Origin: Pirellulales bacterium
GTDB taxonomy: Bacteria > Planctomycetota > Planctomycetia > Pirellulales > PALSA-1355
DNA length: 64,000 nucleotides
Direction: 5' to 3'
Assembly (NCBI GenBank): GCA_963733035.1
Contig: CAVTBU010000004.1
Location: 160,001-224,000, forward strand
This document shows positions 39,001-48,000 of the stretch, one piece after another. A program made the position numbers. The first letter of the stretch is position 1. Each line of letters opens with the position of its first letter.

Positions 39001-42000
39001 GATTGCCAGCCCAAGTCCCGTTCCCTCCGACTTCGTGGTGAAATAGCTTTCGAAGACGCGGGGCATGTCCGTTGGCGATATCCCGTCACCCGTGTCGCGC
39101 ACGATGATCTCGACACCCGATCGATTCTCGCGACATGTAATGCTGAGCGTCCCGCCGCTGAGCATTGCCTGACGTGCATTGACGACGAGATTAAGCAAGG
39201 CCCGCTGAAACTTGCGGCGATCGACAAGCAGATGCACGCCTTGCTCCAGTTCGAGTTCGAGGCGAATGTTCGCACGCTCCAAGTCGAGAGCCTCGAACTC
39301 GGTTACGCTCTTGATGAGTTCGGCCGCGTCGAGATCTTCGAGCTCATCCGCTGCCGGACGCGCGTAAGTCAAAAAATCGTTCAAAAGTTCCTCCATCGCC
39401 TGGATTATCTCGTCTAGTTTCTCCACGCGCGTTGACAGAGCGTGATCGTCGCGAGTGGCTTTGCGCAACAGGCCAACGCGCGACTGCAGTGCGTGCAGAT
39501 GGTTGCGCATCTCGTGCGCCAGCCCGCCCGATAAAAGTGCTAGGTCGGCCAAATTCCGCGTTCGCGCTTTGGACGCGCGCTGCTGCCGGTCACCACGAAA
39601 CAACCGCTGGACAAGGTAGATGCCCGCGATGAGCAGTACAAACTGAACAGCGACATTCAACCAGATAGCGTCGAGAATCTGGCCGCGCAGCGTCTCTGGG
39701 CTGACTGTCCCCAACGTGATTGATGTAAAGACGCCAGCACCGGCCAGAACGACGATGCAGAGAATGATGAGCCAGAGCGCGGGACTGGGGAGCTTTTCCA
39801 TAATCTCATCATCAGCGCCCAGCAGAAGTCGGGCATACCGACGATCGGCTGAATGGGCGCAGAACTGCTCTAATCGGCCAATGCTACTCGGCATACATAG
39901 TGGCTTTGCGCAAGAAACGCGGGACCGCCGATAGAAGCAGTGTCGCGGAGACCGGCTTCCGCAGGAACCCGGTTGCCCCCATCGCCAGGGCTTGATCGCG
40001 AAACGAAGTGCGCTCTTCAGTGCTGACGACAATGACCGGCGTGTGCGCGTCTCTTCGGCGAAACTCTGCGAGCAGGTGAAGGCCGCTGTAGTCCGGCAGT
40101 TGCACAGCGATGAAGACTAGGGCTGGGGACGCAGACGCGAGGCGATTGCTGCCTTCCTCGGCGCTGGTCGCCGCCCATACGGAATAGCCATCGTTAGTTA
40201 GGGCTTGAGTAGCCGTGTTGAGCCACTCCTGGTCGTCGTCAATGATGGCTATTTCATCAGTCATCGAGGCCGATCTCCTGCGCGGCCGCGTCGTCGACAC
40301 GTTGGCCTTTAGGGTCGGTAGTAGTAGAAACCCAACGCCCCACCGCTTGAGCGAATCCGGTGCCAACTCGGTTTTGAAGCCTGGAACCATGGGCGTTTCG
40401 ACGCCGAATCCGTAGCAGTGACATTCTGGCCGACGTCCCGTCGGCTTGCAGGCGACAATTTGGCCGGTTTCTTGCATGGGTTTGGTCCCGGCAACTTGCG
40501 GATCGAACCCATAGCGGGATCGTGCGTAACGGGAACAAGTTTTGCTATGCCCCCTAAAGCAACCTTTTGCACACGGAATACGATCACGCATTTTTAGGAA
40601 TCGCAATTCAGCTAGCACGTTTTCGAGACGAAGGAGTCCGACTCACCTCTGCCGAGGGCAGCGATCATGGACGAACTGTTGCAGAACTCCGTGCCTCGTG
40701 ACGACGCGCGCAAAGCGGATCACGCTGCCGCTCAGCTGACCTCCTCGATTGATGCTCAAGCAGTGGCTCCAGCGAGTTACTATGTCGTGGGCGTTGGCGC
40801 GTCGGCCGGGGGCCTAGAGGCACTGGAGCAATTTTTCGAACACATTCCGCCGGATTCCGGCATGGCGTTCGTGGTGGTCCAGCACCTTTCGCCCGATTTC
40901 AAGAGCCTAATGGACGAGCTGCTTTCGCGGCACACCGAGCTGGCGATTCATCGGGTTGAAGACGGAATGGCGGTCGAGCCAAATGCCATCTATCTCATTC
41001 CGCCCAAGAAGGAAATGATCATAGCAGGCGGGCGGCTGTTGCTGACCGACAAAGATCCGTCGACCGGCTTGAGCTTGCCGATTGATACGTTCTTTCGTTC
41101 GCTGGCTCAAGATATGGGCCAACGAGCCATCGCTGTCGTTCTCTCCGGCACTGGCAGCGACGGCTCCCGTGGCGTCCGGGCAATCCATGAAGCTGGCGGC
41201 TTGGTGATTGTCCAGAACGAGGAGACGGCCAAGTTTGACGGGATGCCGCGCAGTGCGGTTGAAACGGGAGTCGTCGACCTCATGCTGGCCCCGGCGGCGA
41301 TGTCCAAAGCGCTCCTCAACTATATCCAACACCCGGTGCACGGTCGGAAAGGAGGAGACACGTCGGACAACATCACGTCAGAAACAGACATGAATGCCGT
41401 CTATGGCCTGCTGCGCGGCGAATACGGCATCGACTTTTCTCACTACAAACCGAATACAGTCCTTCGCCGCATCGATCGGCGCCTACAACTGAACCGATCA
41501 GACGATCTGGCGGAATACGTCAAGCAGCTGCGAGCCGATCCGCGCGAATTGAATTCGTTGTACAAGGATCTCCTGATTGGCGTGACACGCTTCTTCCGCG
41601 ACCCAGGCCTATTTGAGCGGCTTGCGCAGGAAGTGATTCCCGACATCCTCGCCAGTGTTCCCGTTGACGATGAGATTCGCGCGTGGGTCGCCGGATGCGC
41701 GACCGGAGAAGAAGCCTATTCGTTGGCGATCTTGATTCATGAGGCGCTTACGGCCGCCGGTCGCCCAGTAAACGTAAAAATCTTTGCCACGGACGTGCAT
41801 CGCGCAAGCCTCGAATTTGCGAGCGCTGGTGTCTACCAGGAGGACGCGCTGACGGAGGTCTCGCGTGAACGCCTCGATCGTAACTTTACCAAGCAGATGT
41901 CGGGATATCAGGTTTCACAAGACCTCCGAAAAATGATCGTTTTCGCGCCGCACAACGTGATCAAAGATGCCCCATTTACGAAGCTAGACCTGATTAGTTG

Positions 42001-45000: not shown

Positions 45001-48000
45001 GATCGTCACCTCGGCATCGGCCTGCTCAGTTCCCGTTACGGCGAAGATTCTTAGGGACTGATAGTCTGGGTTTTGGCGGATCGCTGAGACGGTCTGCCGG
45101 CCGTCGAATCTGGGCATCTTCATGTCCAGCAAGACGACATCGGGGCGATCGTTTGCGGACAGATGCACCATGGCCTGTAGTCCATCGATTGCCGTGTCGA
45201 CATGAAAGCCGCTGAGACGCAAATAGCCCGCCAGCAGCTCGCTTTCGTTGACGTCGTCTTCCACGAGCAATGCCCGACGCACTTTGCCGCCAGTTGTCGA
45301 GAGAGACGCGTCTGTTGATCCGCAAAACTCCTCCTCGAGCGATTTCAGCTCGTTGAAGATCTTGAAGATCGTCGGCTCAGAGTCGTCTGCTTGACCCGCC
45401 TCCAACATCCGCTGCAATAGCCGTAGACCGAGGGTGGCCTTCTGCAGCCGGTTGCGCACGGAATGTGTGAAGCGGTCGCTCTTGGCCGCCTGGTTTGCGT
45501 CCGCCGCACGGGTAGAGTCGCTGCCGACAAGTTCGTCTCGCAACACGGCGATATCTTTGGGGGCCTCGATGCCCAATCGCACCTTGTTGCCGACTACGCG
45601 CAGAATCTCAACCGTAATTCCAAGGGTGGGGAAAACGACCTTGTCGTTGCGTCCCCGAGAAAGAACAAGCATGGGTGGGCCTCCATTCCCGCCGAGCCGT
45701 CGGCCGCCACTTGTGGCCTTACTGCAAATCGACGCGCTCTGGTGCGGTGAAGTCGTCTGACACGCCGGCCAAGGCCGCTGATCCAGGTCAGTCGCCGAAT
45801 AAAATGACTTTCGACGCTGTTCCAAGCGGCAGTCGCCAGCCCGACTTCCTTGTCGAGGCATCCACGTGGAGGTCCGTTCCACGCTGACCCGCAGGGTCAG
45901 GATCGATTTTTTTACGTTGCACCTGCGATCTGATCAAGACCGCTTTCCGATGAATCGAGGAGACGCTAGCAAGGCTTTCGGAATCAGCTTTGGCTCCAAA
46001 GCAATCCGTCGAAGGTCACATCACTCCTAGCCCGTGGAATAAGATCGCGAACGCGTGCAAGATGAGACCGATGAAGGCGACTGCCCCGAGTAGCACGAAC
46101 GGGAGGGCCAGTCCGACAGAAGTCAGCATCACCACCGATGCCGTGAGCCAAACGACGTGCCAAACACTCGACAGCGAGGCCGGCTGCGACTCCAATTCGT
46201 TCAGTCTGCCAACCCTGACCTGTAAAGGCCATCGGGCCGACAGCGACCCAGGGTATCACCCCGGCAGTGACAATTTGGCTTGGCCATACATGCCAAAATG
46301 ACACGCCATTGTCGCCAATCGCCTCTGGAAGACGGCAAGTCTTTGCAAAGAACCGGCGGGCACGGCAGTTGCTGTCTATCGCAATGTCAAGTCAGCAGGC
46401 CGCTCAAGGTGGGAACCGTACGATGAAAACACAATGGGTATTCAATAATTGCGGTCGGGATAAACGGAAGGCACAGGCATACTGGGAAAAGAAGGCGCAC
46501 CGGCTAAATCGCCTAATGTCAAACTACCGCCCTGAGCTGCGCCGCATTCGTTTGACGGTGTACCGCCACGATGCACGGGACGAGTGGGAGATGCGCGGCG
46601 TCGTGCACCTGCCCACCGGTACCCTTGTCTCGGAGGAGACCTGTGCGACGTTGCACGAATGCATCGACAAGGTGGCCGACGAGTTGGCGCGTGAGATCCG
46701 CCGGCACAAGAGTAAGGTAAGAAAAGATCATCTCTATCGTCGCCGGCGTCGGCGGCGTCAACAGCTGTCGGCCGCGGGCCCGTACCTAGCGCAAGATGCC
46801 TCAGACGGGCGAAAGGATGCCTTCGTGGCGATGTTGTTACCGTTGATGGATCAAGTTTGCGACCATGCTCGACGCGAGCTGCGGATCCTCGTGCACGATG
46901 GAACGCTTCCCAAGGGGGAATGGTACGCGCGCGACCTGGTCGATGATGTCCTGGTCCGCGCATGCGAATCGTTTGGCGAACGGCCGAACGACGTATCGCT
47001 CGACGTGTGGCGGATCGAACTACTCCACCAGCGCTTGCAGGAACTGTGTCAGCAGATTGAACCTGTATCGCTTGCCGCGTCGTCCTCTCGGTCACGAGCC
47101 ATTGACAACGACGACAACGAGGATCTGGACGATATCCAATATTGGCGGGAACTTCTGCTGGAACCGCCCGAGGAATTGTCGTTGGAGGAGTTGCTGCCAG
47201 ACGATGATGTGGGGGACATGTGGGACGAATTGTCCGCACAAGAACAACGCGACGGGTTGAAACGGCTTCTGTGGAAGCTACCCAAGCATCAGAGACAAGC
47301 TCTGATGCTGCACGACGCGCAGGATACTGGATCGTCACGAAAGCAACGTCGAGAACGACATTGAAGCAGCGCGCAGTAGGCTGAGAACCGAATTGACTGC
47401 GACCATTTGATTAGCCGCGCTGTATCGATGTTCCGCTGGCACAATGCAATCTGCAACGTGGGATCAATTCCTAGTCTCCGACACCAATGTCAACTTGGAT
47501 TGCTTCATAGATCAGGTCCGTCTCCCGTGACTGAAAGTGCCGCAACGCAGTCAGCAGCCATGCAAGTCGTTGGCGAACGTCGGAGACGTCGGAGGAACCA
47601 TCGGGCACGCTCGACGACGAGAACTCCGTTCGCAGTGAACCGATCTGACGGACCAGGTCATCGTATTGGCGTCGCAACTGCTGGACGCGATTCTCAAGCC
47701 TGGGGGCCTCATTCAGAATGTCCGCCAACAGGCCCTCTTCGCCGCTCAAGTCGGCGGACTGCCTTTGCATCGTCTTGCCCAGTACGTCCAGCGCCTTGAC
47801 CACGGCCGTACGCCATGCTGATTCACGGTGCGGAGCCGGTTTTGCCAACGCGGATTCCAACACATGCATGGCCTTTAGCATAAGCTGACGCGTTAGCTGG
47901 CTGGCATCAACGGCCTGATCGCGTCGTGATTGATCGATTCGAGTGGATTTGCCTGGGGATGTGTGGCTCATGCGCGATCTCCTGCTGATTTGCTTACTCT

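What a model noticed while it worked through the whole genome (the two positions that open the first line are those of the whole stretch)
40667..45672. CsrA RNA-binding domain fused to a two-component receiver domain, beside a CheB/CheR-type hybrid histidine kinase
One of the 14 CsrA paralogues of this genome (g00418, 257 aa) carries a complete N-terminal CsrA domain, an about 85-residue helical linker and a C-terminal receiver (REC) domain with the phospho-acceptor Asp, and lies tail-to-tail with a 1352-aa CheB-CheR-PAS-HisKA-HATPase-REC hybrid kinase (g00417). I read it as a response regulator whose output is RNA binding: phosphorylation by the neighbouring kinase would switch a CsrA-type translational repressor on or off directly, without sponge RNAs or FliW-like antagonists. 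A phosphorylation-gated CsrA would be a new mode of control for this global regulator family and a compact, programmable post-transcriptional switch.
Evidence so far: pfam.tsv: CsrA res 1-49 (E 1e-13), Response_reg res 135-246 (E 4e-19). Sequence: MLVLSR..., GxxVRLGIEAPKDIAVLRDEL keeps the CsrA RNA-binding residues L2, L4, R6 and the Arg equivalent to E. coli R44 (comparison with E. coli CsrA recalled); REC keeps VVLLDMKMP. find_homologous_proteins: 1688 proteins E<=1e-10 among 4839 candidates; all 120 listed (54-81% identity, 96-100% coverage, 251-373 aa) carry both PF02599 and PF00072; sources name them only 'carbon storage regulator CsrA' or 'response regulator', where named from Pirellulales/Planctomycetota MAGs. 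neighbours.tsv: CsrA next to CheB_methylest/CheR/PAS_10 genes in 131/128/138 Pirellulales genomes (255/276/208 genomes in all). 14 CsrA gene [...]
(Added by a program. Inside this text positions count along the whole contig: contig position 160,001 is position 1 of the stretch shown here. "Call 12" and the like, gene names such as g00115 and contig names such as C1 are that model's own, and its searches are not shown. The text may have been shortened before it was handed on; [...] marks where a part breaks off. The agent that wrote the report below was given it as the finding of a first reader that could run no searches.)

Follow-up and report, generated by a model that had tools for sequence, protein, structure and literature searches.

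The report
CsrA fused to phosphorelay His-Asp module
A planctomycete gene joins the RNA-binding regulator CsrA to a histidine-phosphotransfer helix pair and a receiver domain, next to a hybrid sensor kinase, which suggests, but does not prove, that a phosphorelay directly controls a translational regulator.

Summary
Window 44899-45672 (-) encodes a 257-aa protein with a CsrA domain (res 1-49) and a receiver (REC, 135-246). It lies tail-to-tail with a 1352-aa CheB-CheR-PAS-HisKA-HATPase-REC hybrid kinase (40667-44725, +). It is 1 of 14 CsrA genes in the genome and the only fused one.

The main correction concerns the "helical linker". It is a conserved domain: a divergent HisKA/DHp helical hairpin (res ~65-117) with an invariant His70 in an H-x-x-R-N-R-L box, set between two disordered spacers. 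There is no ATPase domain. So the architecture is CsrA-DHp(His)-REC(Asp).

A related hybrid kinase lies within 1.1 kb in 42 of 80 related loci, either convergent or co-directional. 41 of these 42 kinases carry their own REC. None of the 16 scanned has an HPt domain.

My best reading (about 0.45) is a two-protein, four-step relay: kinase His, kinase Asp, His70, Asp183. The phosphorylated REC would then gate CsrA's RNA binding.

CsrA-type response regulators have been catalogued since 2006, but I found no experimental study, and no description of the His domain. Nothing here shows RNA binding, dimerisation or phosphotransfer. Verdict: a new variant of a known kind.

The parts
44899..45672 (-). 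CsrA-DHp-REC gene, 257 aa plus stop
   Evidence: ORF and translation; Pfam CsrA and Response_reg; 120 of 120 listed homologues share both domains.
45526..45672 (-). CsrA domain, residues 1-49
   Evidence: Pfam E 2.4e-13. Matches solved CsrA/RsmE chains at E 3e-6 to 1e-5 over residues 1-49. L2, L4, R6, R45 and E47 conserved in 53-54 of 54.
45472..45525 (-). Variable spacer 1, residues 50-67
   Evidence: pLDDT below 50 for residues 50-67. No majority residue in most columns of alignment A1.
45325..45471 (-). HisKA/DHp-like helical hairpin, residues 68-116, with H-box H70-x-x-R73-N74-R75-L76
   Evidence: H70, N74 and R75 are 54/54. Predicted helices 70-91 and 98-116, or 65-91 and 99-117 in the DHp+REC model. 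Pfam HisKA hits 18 of 69 family linkers, best E 1.6e-5; the window's own linker gives no hit. hhalign against 45 kinase DHp segments: 96%, E 3.8e-9, His aligned on His. Controls: 2.0% at most over 30 column shuffles, 0.2% reversed. Atlas features: 19 of 30 hits in the HisKA set, score 0.91.
45463..45465 (-). Codon of His70 (CAT), candidate phospho-acceptor
   Evidence: Read. Invariant in 54/54 and nearly invariant (>=90%) in the 69 linkers of A2. Aligned to the kinase phospho-His.
45277..45324 (-). Variable spacer 2, residues 117-132
   Evidence: pLDDT below 50 for residues 119-129; variable columns.
44935..45270 (-). Receiver domain, residues 135-246
   Evidence: Pfam E 8.9e-19. Matches PleD, CheY and Spo0F receivers. 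VIA-align Z 19.6 to 3t6k (rmsd 1.8, 121 aligned). Active-site quintet conserved and Trp232 invariant at K-3.
45124..45126 (-). Codon of Asp183 (GAC), phospho-acceptor Asp
   Evidence: Read. Lies in LLDMKMP, aligned to LLDVMMP of PleD. 54/54.
45681..45690 (-). Leader GGAATGGAGG: two GGA motifs overlapping the ribosome-binding site
   Evidence: 80 of 81 family genes have GGA at -20..-3, against 24% of random 18-mers; many read GGAAAGGAG. Stand-alone CsrA paralogues also have GGA-type leaders, so this may be only a strong Shine-Dalgarno sequence.
44726..44898 (.). 173-nt spacer between the two convergent stop codons
   Evidence: Coordinates. One terminator-like hairpin at 44803-44823 (+), not above the shuffle expectation (3 found against 2.0 +/- 1.5).
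40667..44725 (+). Hybrid histidine kinase, 1352 aa
   Evidence: Pfam, 9 domains. No Hpt domain among the hits at E <= 0.01.
40787..42157 (+). CheB methylesterase (41-216) and CheR methyltransferase (247-497) modules of the kinase
   Evidence: Pfam E 3.7e-60, 3.9e-14 and 9.6e-50. Catalytic residues not checked.
42920..43609 (+). PAS_10 (752-855) and PAS_4 (877-981) sensor domains
   Evidence: Pfam E 9.9e-25 and 5.6e-18.
43646..44317 (+). HisKA (994-1059, H-box SHELRNPL with His1003) and HATPase_c (1105-1217)
   Evidence: Pfam. His1003 and the surrounding box conserved in 36 of 36 neighbouring kinases whose aligned segment covered it.
44375..44710 (+). C-terminal receiver of the kinase (1237-1348, Asp1285)
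   Evidence: Pfam E 2e-24. In 41 neighbouring kinases: D 41/41, T 41/41, K 41/41; T-G-Y after beta4 (Y 39/41); His at K-3 40/41.

Best explanation
The 257-aa protein is a three-part signalling protein, CsrA-DHp(His70)-REC(Asp183). I read it as the end of a two-protein, four-step phosphorelay fed by the neighbouring hybrid kinase, which has no HPt domain.

Proposed path:
1. The kinase autophosphorylates on His1003.
2. It passes the phosphoryl group to its own receiver, Asp1285.
3. From there the group goes to His70 on the fusion's ATPase-less, HisKA-like helical hairpin. This hairpin would play the role that ChpT or Spo0B play as separate proteins.
4. It then goes to Asp183 of the fusion's own receiver.

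The phosphorylation state of that terminal receiver, which keeps an invariant aromatic switch residue (Trp232), would decide whether the CsrA dimer can reach GGA-containing mRNA leaders. The likely means is docking or occlusion across flexible tethers, not a rigid helix.

Shown here: domain content, conservation of all catalytic residues, homology of the hairpin to DHp, and conserved neighbourhood with hybrid kinases.

Inferred: every phosphotransfer step, dimerisation, RNA binding, and the direction and sign of the gating.
For: 1. Architecture. CsrA and REC by Pfam. REC quintet and CsrA RNA-face residues conserved in 50-54 of 54 homologues.

2. The middle region is a DHp relative.
- H70, N74 and R75 are 54/54.
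- A two-helix hairpin is predicted (DHp+REC model pLDDT 83.6, pTM 0.66).
- Pfam HisKA hits 18 of 69 family linkers (best E 1.6e-5), SPOB_a 4, HisKA_2 2.
- hhalign against kinase DHp segments gives 96%, E 3.8e-9, with His on the phospho-His. Controls: 2.0% at most in 30 column shuffles, 0.2% reversed.
- Language-model features: 19 of 30 hits in the HisKA set.

3. No HATPase_c in the fusion, so the His cannot be self-charged.

4. Partner.
- 42 of 80 related loci have a homologous kinase within 1.1 kb: 39 downstream (24 convergent, 15 co-directional) and 3 upstream. Of the 70 loci with at least 2.5 kb of downstream flank, 40 have one.
- 41 of the 42 include the C-terminal REC.
- 16 of 16 scanned are HisKA+HATPase_c+Response_reg with no Hpt.
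- An HPt-like domain occurs in the flanks of only 2 of 80 loci (weak home-made model).

5. The two receivers differ as a relay would predict.
- The kinase REC has T-G-Y after beta4 (Y 39/41) and His at K-3 (40/41). This resembles the FxSGY/'FATGUY' signature that PMC9981736 (section 11, read in full) assigns to intermediary and hub receivers.
- The fusion's REC lacks that Tyr and has Trp232 54/54 at the aromatic switch position.

6. DHp-REC proteins without CsrA exist (P0123, P0157, P0187, P0206). This suggests the His-Asp pair is an autonomous unit.
Against: - The DHp homology is remote. The window's own linker gives no Pfam hit even at E <= 10. 51 of 69 family linkers give no HisKA hit. A profile search of solved-structure sequences found no kinase. 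The 150 best of 391 representative hits to the DHp profile are nearly all this same family and its fragments, with no recognisable kinase.
- The H-box lacks the acidic H+1 residue and has Arg where HisKA has Pro.
- The genome has 5 conventional HPt domains that the kinase could use instead.
- 32 of 80 loci show no kinase in the held flanks, and 24 of those have at least 2.5 kb downstream.
- In this window the two genes converge, so they are not co-transcribed.
- Both tethers around the DHp are disordered and variable, so no allosteric path from REC to CsrA is visible.
- The full-length model has pTM 0.49.
- One family member (L060) has Asn in place of the His.
Confidence: 0.45

Rival explanations
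1. Plain two-component reading. The kinase DHp phosphorylates Asp183 of the fusion directly. The kinase's own receiver is a sink or regulator. The fusion's helical hairpin only dimerises the protein, or acts as a built-in phosphatase or docking site for its own receiver. Phosphorylation gates CsrA.
For: The receiver is sequence-competent and a kinase is a conserved neighbour. The retained Asn at H+4 (54/54) is the position that, from recalled literature on HisKA kinases, supports phosphatase activity. The missing acidic H+1 residue argues against a fully kinase-like His. Hybrid kinases that also serve separate regulators are known (general knowledge).
Against: It does not explain why His70 is kept in 54 of 54 and nearly all of 69 linkers, or why the partner is a hybrid kinase in 41 of 42 cases with no HPt in 16 of 16.
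Confidence: 0.25
2. Reversed information flow. CsrA is the input. It sits where kinases carry sensor domains, N-terminal to the DHp. RNA binding would change how the DHp-REC unit accepts or passes phosphoryl groups. The protein would then report the abundance of GGA-rich RNA to a phosphorelay, with the receiver as a hub or protein-binding output.
For: Domain order is input-DHp-REC. DHp-REC units occur without CsrA. The segment G7-x-N9-D10-K11-V-V-F14-P15 of the CsrA domain is nearly invariant in the fusion family and differs from the 13 stand-alone paralogues. This suggests an extra protein-contact surface.
Against: The CsrA-DHp tether is disordered and variable, unlike the rigid helical connections that carry signals into DHp domains. 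No downstream partner is conserved other than the kinase (of the window's neighbours, only kinase-type genes recur in the loci).
Confidence: 0.12
3. No functional pairing. The fusion is an orphan regulator, or a constitutive CsrA paralogue whose C-terminal part only provides dimerisation or localisation. Its adjacency to kinases would reflect the high density of two-component genes in planctomycete genomes.
For: 32 of 80 loci have no kinase nearby. The genes converge in this window. Another two-component operon lies just upstream of the kinase (37478-40618), showing how dense such genes are here.
Against: The neighbouring kinases are not random. They form one homologous group: 38-72% identity to the window's kinase, and a shared unusual His at K-3 in 40 of 41. 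They recur in two orientations across several planctomycete orders. Strict conservation of the phospho-acceptor residues argues against a purely structural role.
Confidence: 0.1

Closest known systems
Canonical CsrA/RsmA/RsmE translational regulators (solved chains 1y00, 2jpp, 1vpz, 7yr6)
   Same: Same fold family by sequence: residues 1-49 align end to end at E 3e-6 to 1e-5. Residues aligned to E. coli L2, L4, R6, R44 and E46 are kept. That these are the RNA-binding residues is recalled, not tested.
   Different: Canonical proteins are 55-75 aa and stand alone. From recalled literature they are controlled by sponge RNAs or FliW. This protein carries a His domain and a receiver, has Gly at position 7, and has a family-specific segment N9-D10-K11-V-V-F14-P15.
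Response regulators with RNA-binding outputs: ANTAR regulators (AmiR, EutV, PdtaR) and the 'CsrA' class of Galperin's 2006 census
   Same: A receiver coupled to an RNA-binding domain. [quoted passage not shown] The census class is probably this very family, but that is recalled and not verified, because the census papers are not held.
   Different: ANTAR regulators have the receiver at the N-terminus and act by antitermination (PMC7602753, passage read). Here the receiver is C-terminal, the output is CsrA, and a HisKA-like His domain lies between them. None of my literature searches returned a description of this domain.
DHp-type histidine phosphotransferases ChpT (CckA-ChpT-CtrA/CpdR) and Spo0B (Spo0F-Spo0B-Spo0A)
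   Same: A kinase-derived helical hairpin with a phospho-acceptor His and no kinase activity, placed between a hybrid kinase's (or Spo0F's) receiver and a terminal receiver. PMC9981736, abstract and section 11 read, covers the CckA relay; Spo0B is recalled. 4 of 69 family linkers hit Pfam SPOB_a.
   Different: ChpT and Spo0B are separate proteins and keep a degenerate ATPase-like domain (recalled). Here the hairpin has no such remnant and is fused in one chain to the terminal receiver and the output domain. No Pfam HPTransfase hit was seen among the families listed for the linkers. Membership is not claimed.
Hybrid histidine kinases with N-terminal CheB-CheR modules
   Same: The neighbour has the full set CheB_methylest, CheR, PAS_10, PAS, HisKA, HATPase_c, REC. 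19 of the 42 neighbouring kinases in related loci share the CheB/CheR part.
   Different: 23 of the 42 partners are short PAS-HisKA-HATPase-REC forms without CheB/CheR. The conserved partner is therefore the kinase-receiver core, not the CheB/CheR part stressed in the finding. One literature search (listing only) returned no study of this architecture.

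Membership tests
CsrA (PF02599) | Sequence match to the family profile above the curated cut-off | tested here: met
   50.3 bits against a cut-off of 27, residues 1-49. It is the lowest-scoring of the genome's 14 matches, at 53.3 bits.
CsrA (PF02599) | Conservation of the residues aligned to E. coli L2, L4, R6, R44, E46 (their role in RNA binding is recalled) | tested here: met
   Alignment to 1y00 and 2jpp. L2 53/54, L4 53/54, R6 54/54, R45 54/54, E47 54/54. E. coli R7 is Gly here.
CsrA (PF02599) | Interlocked homodimer and binding of GGA-containing RNA | not testable with these tools
Response regulator receiver (PF00072) | Profile match and the active-site quintet (two acidic residues, phospho-Asp, Thr/Ser, Lys) | tested here: met
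   68.1 bits against a cut-off of 30.2. D139 54/54, D140 50/54, D183 54/54, T/S213 54/54, K235 54/54. Fold Z 19.6 to 3t6k, rmsd 1.8, 121 aligned.
HisKA / DHp domain (PF00512) | Sequence match to the family profile | tested here: inconclusive
   The window's own linker gives no hit at E <= 10. 18 of 69 family linkers hit HisKA, best E 1.6e-5. Profile-profile comparison gives 96%, E 3.8e-9, against 2.0% or less in 30 shuffles.
HisKA / DHp domain (PF00512) | Conserved His at the phospho-acceptor position of helix 1, within a two-helix hairpin | tested here: met
   His70 is 54/54 and aligns on the kinase His. Helices 65-91 and 99-117.
HisKA / DHp domain (PF00512) | Dimeric four-helix bundle, and phosphorylation of the His | not testable with these tools
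   No multimer prediction was available. Fold searches returned only receiver matches.
Histidine kinase | ATP-binding catalytic domain (HATPase_c) | tested here: not met
   No HATPase_c hit in the 257-aa protein at E <= 0.01. The protein is not a kinase.
HPt domain (PF01627) | Profile match | tested here: not met
   No Hpt hit for the fusion or the kinase, nor for the window's own linker at E <= 10. Hpt is not among the 25 families shown, of 43, for the 69 linkers.
Hybrid histidine kinase (the neighbour) | HisKA, HATPase_c and a C-terminal receiver with conserved His and Asp | tested here: met
   Pfam. His1003 in SHELRNPL; Asp1285, Thr1315 and Lys1337 are 41/41 in neighbouring orthologues.

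The most novel reading that the evidence does not exclude
A DHp-type histidine phosphotransferase is fused in one chain to its terminal receiver and to CsrA. A single HPt-less hybrid kinase plus this 257-aa protein would then form a complete His-Asp-His-Asp relay ending directly on a translational regulator. This would be phosphorylation-gated CsrA activity without sponge RNAs or FliW. It would also be the first case known to me of a phosphotransferase fused to its end-point receiver.
Probability: 0.35. Interest if true: 0.8.

Novelty: new variant of a known kind. Interest (0 to 1): 0.62.

Why it matters
CsrA is a major post-transcriptional regulator. From recalled literature, its known controls are indirect: sponge RNAs made under two-component control, or the FliW antagonist. 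A CsrA whose activity is set directly by a phosphorelay would be a new and shorter route from signal to translation.

It would also help explain why planctomycetes carry up to about 15 CsrA genes. This genome has 14, and PMC13443453 reports up to 15 per genome (passages read).

The His-Asp unit fused to an output is a compact module, which could interest people who engineer post-transcriptional switches.

The prediction is directly testable with two soluble proteins and three point mutants. The family is sizeable: 391 clusters at 50% identity match the His domain, and 167 species genomes hold a relative. I found no experimental work on it.

Tried and rejected
- Complex prediction (homodimer of the fusion) was not available, so the CsrA and DHp dimers are untested.
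- Fold searches with the full model (Foldseek pdb) and the DHp+REC model (VIA-align wide) returned only receiver matches. The model range below residue 60 of the DHp+REC model was barely tested, so they say nothing about the hairpin.
- A profile search of solved-structure sequences with the linker alignment found no kinase. The best hit was COP9 subunit 1 at E 0.077, which I take as chance.
- Pfam on the window's own linker: no family at E <= 10.
- Rfam on 36000-50000: no match at E <= 0.1.
- Promoter and terminator scan of 44500-46400: 0 promoter-like sites, and 3 terminator-like sites against 2.0 +/- 1.5 expected.
- The conserved leader GGAAAGGAG was considered as a CsrA autoregulation site. 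I did not adopt it, because stand-alone paralogues also have GGA-type ribosome-binding sites.
- Other window neighbours are not conserved next to the family. tblastn at E <= 1e-10 with 25 window proteins found recurring hits only for the fusion, the hybrid kinase and kinase/receiver-type domains.
- The FATGUY motif was considered for the fusion's own receiver and rejected: there is no Tyr at T+2.
- Galperin 2006 and 2010 could not be read.
- The held supplement of PMC13443453 (1 file, 153,480 characters) contains none of the strings VVFP, RNRL or DRWF, so the fusion family does not appear in the held part of that tested library.
- Two Pfam calls failed on coordinates that contained a stop codon. 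I checked the coordinates by script and re-sent them without L041 and L058.

Full report
**1. What is there**

Window 44899-45672 (-) is a 774-nt gene. Its ATG is at 45672 and GGAATGGAGG ends 8 nt upstream.

The 257-aa product matches Pfam CsrA at residues 1-49 (E 2.4e-13, 50.3 bits, cut-off 27). It matches Response_reg at residues 135-246 (E 8.9e-19). NCBIfam gives the same picture, below the full-length cut-offs of the CsrA equivalogs, as expected for a fusion.

Window 40667-44725 (+) encodes a 1352-aa protein. Its domains are CheB_methylest, CheR_N, CheR, a coiled coil, PAS_10, PAS_4, HisKA, HATPase_c and Response_reg. The two genes converge, 173 nt apart.

The genome is 6.65 Mb in 10 contigs and 92% complete. 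It has 14 CsrA matches over the Pfam cut-off. The other 13 are stand-alone proteins of 61-129 aa.

**2. The two end domains look functional by sequence**

Residues 1-49 align end to end with solved CsrA/RsmE chains, including 7yr6, 1vpz, 2jpp and 1y00 (E 3e-6 to 1e-5).

In 54 aligned homologues, L2 (53), L4 (53), R6 (54), R45 (54; aligned to E. coli R44) and E47 (54) are kept. That these are the RNA-contact residues is recalled from the CsrA literature and was not tested.

The receiver aligns with PleD, CheY and Spo0F. It keeps D139 (54/54), D140 (50/54, otherwise N), D183 (54/54), T/S213 (32 T, 22 S) and K235 (54/54). Trp232 is invariant at the aromatic switch position, K-3.

**3. The "linker" is a domain**

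Alignment A1 shows two variable stretches, 50-67 and 117-132. They flank a conserved block, 68-116, in which H70, N74 and R75 are invariant. R73, L76, A79, L83, L86, L90, E99, I102, F103, E108, L109, K110 and E113 are nearly so.

AlphaFold2 on this alignment gives pLDDT 74.8 and pTM 0.49. It predicts helices 70-91 and 98-116, with pLDDT below 50 at 50-67 and 119-129. A model of residues 64-257, built on 67 sequences, gives pLDDT 83.6 and pTM 0.66, with helices at 65-91 and 99-117 in full-length numbering.

The motif H-x-x-R-N-R-L-(N/H/Q)-x-A resembles the HisKA H-box; the neighbouring kinase has SHELRNPL. I tested this resemblance four ways:

- Pfam on the window's own linker: nothing at E <= 10.
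- Pfam on 69 linker segments cut from the window and 68 related loci (A2): HisKA in 18 of 69 (best E 1.6e-5), SPOB_a in 4, HisKA_2 in 2. The next families are TPR-like noise.
- hhalign of A2 against 45 DHp segments of kinases from the same loci: probability 96%, E 3.8e-9, 46 columns, family His on the phospho-acceptor His. Thirty column-shuffled versions of the kinase alignment reached at most 2.0%, and the reversed alignment 0.2%.
- The ESM-Atlas feature search with residues 62-120: 19 of 30 hits in the HisKA set, score 0.91. That is lead-level evidence only.

Against this, a profile search of solved-structure sequences found no kinase. The profile search of 1.84 billion representatives found 391 proteins at E <= 1e-3. 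The 150 listed are almost all this same family and its fragments, not kinases.

I conclude that the block is a divergent, family-specific DHp relative. It has no ATPase domain. It lacks the acidic residue at H+1 and has Arg in place of the HisKA Pro.

**4. Family and range**

All 120 listed homologues (54-100% identity, 251-373 aa) carry both Pfam domains. They come from a total of 1718 proteins at E <= 1e-5 among 4839 candidates.

In the species-representative genome set, 167 stretches encode a relative. The 80 loci kept are planctomycete MAGs labelled Pirellulales, Lacipirellulaceae, Thermoguttaceae, Gemmatales/Gemmataceae, Singulisphaera, Schlesneria and others. One is labelled only "bacterium" and one Cyclobacteriaceae.

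In an even sample of the phylum, 12 of 401 genomes (the window's own included) matched residues 1-120 at E <= 1e-10. All 12 are in the window's class, and 9 of the 20 sampled genomes of one family matched. This single-sequence threshold will miss distant members.

Two loci (L042, L053) carry frameshifted copies.

Four of the proteins checked from the DHp-profile hits start with Met and have DHp+REC but no CsrA: P0123, P0157, P0187 and P0206. Mis-called starts cannot be excluded.

**5. Neighbourhood**

In the window, the kinase is preceded by a divergent operon: a REC protein, a HisKA-HATPase kinase and an NtrC-type regulator (37478-40618, -). The fusion gene is preceded by a divergent S30AE-domain gene (46267-47364, +). 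None of these recurs next to the family.

The kinase does recur. tblastn of the window's kinase against the 80 loci finds a homologue, with HisKA+HATPase at least 70% covered, within 1100 nt of the fusion gene in 42 loci.

- Position: 39 downstream (24 convergent, 15 co-directional, some 0-60 nt away as in an operon) and 3 upstream.
- Receiver: 41 of the 42 include the C-terminal receiver.
- N-terminal part: 19 carry the CheB/CheR part and 23 are short forms.
- Of the other 38 loci: six have a kinase at 1.3-3.9 kb, and 32 show none. Eight of those 32 have less than 2.5 kb of downstream sequence.

Pfam on 16 of the short neighbours gives HisKA+HATPase_c+Response_reg in 16 of 16, mostly with PAS, and Hpt in none. 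L041 and L058 were dropped from this scan because their coordinates enclosed a stop codon.

A small home-made HPt model, built from 5 sequences of the window's genome, found HPt-like domains in the flanks of 2 of 80 loci. The window's genome does have 5 HPt domains elsewhere.

**6. The two receivers differ**

In the 41 neighbouring kinases the receiver keeps D, T and K in 41/41. It has A-L-T-G-Y-G after beta4 (G 40/41, Y 39/41) and His at K-3 (40/41).

PMC9981736 (abstract and section 11 read in full) reports an FxSGY/"FATGUY" motif at this place in the intermediary receiver of CckA and in receiver-only hubs. It also reports variability at the aromatic switch position in such receivers. The match here (T-G-Y, with Ala in place of the Phe) is partial.

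The fusion's own receiver has no Tyr at T+2 and an invariant Trp at the switch position. That pattern is expected of a terminal, allosterically switching receiver.

**7. Mechanism**

The most economical reading is a His1003 -> Asp1285 -> His70 -> Asp183 relay carried by two proteins. The fusion's hairpin would do the job that ChpT or Spo0B do as separate proteins, and the terminal receiver would gate CsrA.

This reading explains the invariant His without an ATPase. It explains the hybrid, HPt-less partner, the contrast between the two receivers, and the stand-alone DHp-REC relatives.

It does not explain how a receiver on a disordered tether controls CsrA. I suggest docking or occlusion. The segment G7-x-N9-D10-K11-V-V-F14-P15, nearly invariant in the fusion family and different in the 13 stand-alone paralogues, is a candidate contact surface. 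That is inference only.

The rivals are: direct kinase-to-Asp183 transfer with the hairpin as dimeriser or phosphatase; CsrA as an RNA-sensing input to the His-Asp unit; and no real pairing.

**8. What is known**

[quoted passage not shown] The CsrA-receiver combination has therefore been catalogued for two decades. The census papers themselves are not held.

PMC12471899 (2025 review, passages read) lists E. coli CsrA as an "orphan RR". This looks like a confusion with that class.

PMC13443453 (abstract, passages and a search of one held supplement) surveys more than 20,000 CsrA homologues and reports up to 15 per genome. It tested more than 500. Its main text does not mention receiver fusions, and the held supplement lacks the family's motifs.

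Six searches returned no experimental study of this protein and no description of its His domain. Their terms were:

- CsrA with receiver domain/Planctomycetes
- CsrA with output domain/ANTAR
- CsrA with Rhodopirellula
- CsrA with Galperin/RNA-binding
- CsrA with HisKA
- "CsrA domain" with response regulator

The library lacks most subscription journals, so this is not proof of absence.

**9. Verdict**

This is a new variant of a known kind, a response regulator with an RNA-binding output. It adds a previously unremarked phosphotransfer domain and a conserved hybrid-kinase partner. Every mechanistic step is still untested.

Noticed in passing
L038:10855-11193 and L050:10734-11156: In two Thermoguttaceae loci, a KaiB-domain gene (Pfam E 2.6e-16 and 1.7e-17) lies between the CsrA-DHp-REC gene and the co-directional PAS-HisKA-HATPase-REC kinase, as if the three formed one operon.
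   Followed up: no
window 37478-40618 (-): A separate two-component operon diverges from the hybrid kinase: a receiver protein (39884-40618), a HisKA-HATPase kinase (38839-40032) and an NtrC-type sigma-54 activator (37478-38839). It is not conserved next to the fusion family.
   Followed up: partly
window 46267-47364 (+): The ORF called here is 365 aa with an S30AE / ribosome-hibernation domain at residues 69-152 only (E 1.9e-8). That is much longer than the domain, and the ORF diverges from the fusion gene. The start was not verified, and a 298-aa ORF overlaps it on the other strand.
   Followed up: no
L081-L093 (own genome, 13 other CsrA genes): The 13 stand-alone CsrA paralogues are 61-129 aa. 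Several have tandem GGA motifs in their leaders (for example L083, L086, L088, L092). This fits cross- or autoregulation among the paralogues, or simply strong ribosome-binding sites.
   Followed up: partly
window 45673-45720 (-) and the same place in L001-L080: The leader just upstream of the start codon is conserved at nucleotide level across orders. It approximates GGAAAGGAGACCCA, and 80 of 81 genes have GGA at -20..-3.
   Followed up: partly
P0123, P0157, P0187, P0206: These proteins of 197-212 aa start with Met and have the family's His hairpin and a receiver but no CsrA domain. They may be natural CsrA-less forms or mis-called starts.
   Followed up: partly
L042:10001-10754 and L053:10001-10775: In these two records, tblastn matches to the fusion gene continue beyond a premature stop in the first reading frame, which gives 69 and 113 aa. 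They are frameshifted copies or assembly errors.
   Followed up: no
L060:10169-10339: Of the 68 locus linkers printed, this is the only one with Asn where the conserved His should be. Its neighbour is a co-directional CheB-CheR hybrid kinase.
   Followed up: no
window 53013-58431 (-): A 1524-aa protein with He_PIG Ig-like repeats and a dockerin domain lies next to a PEP-CTERM protein. It is unrelated to the finding.
   Followed up: no
PMC12471899, section 4 and Table 2: This 2025 review lists E. coli CsrA as an 'orphan RR' with a C-terminal RNA-binding domain (passages read). E. coli CsrA has no receiver, so this may be a confusion with the census class of CsrA-type regulators.
   Followed up: no
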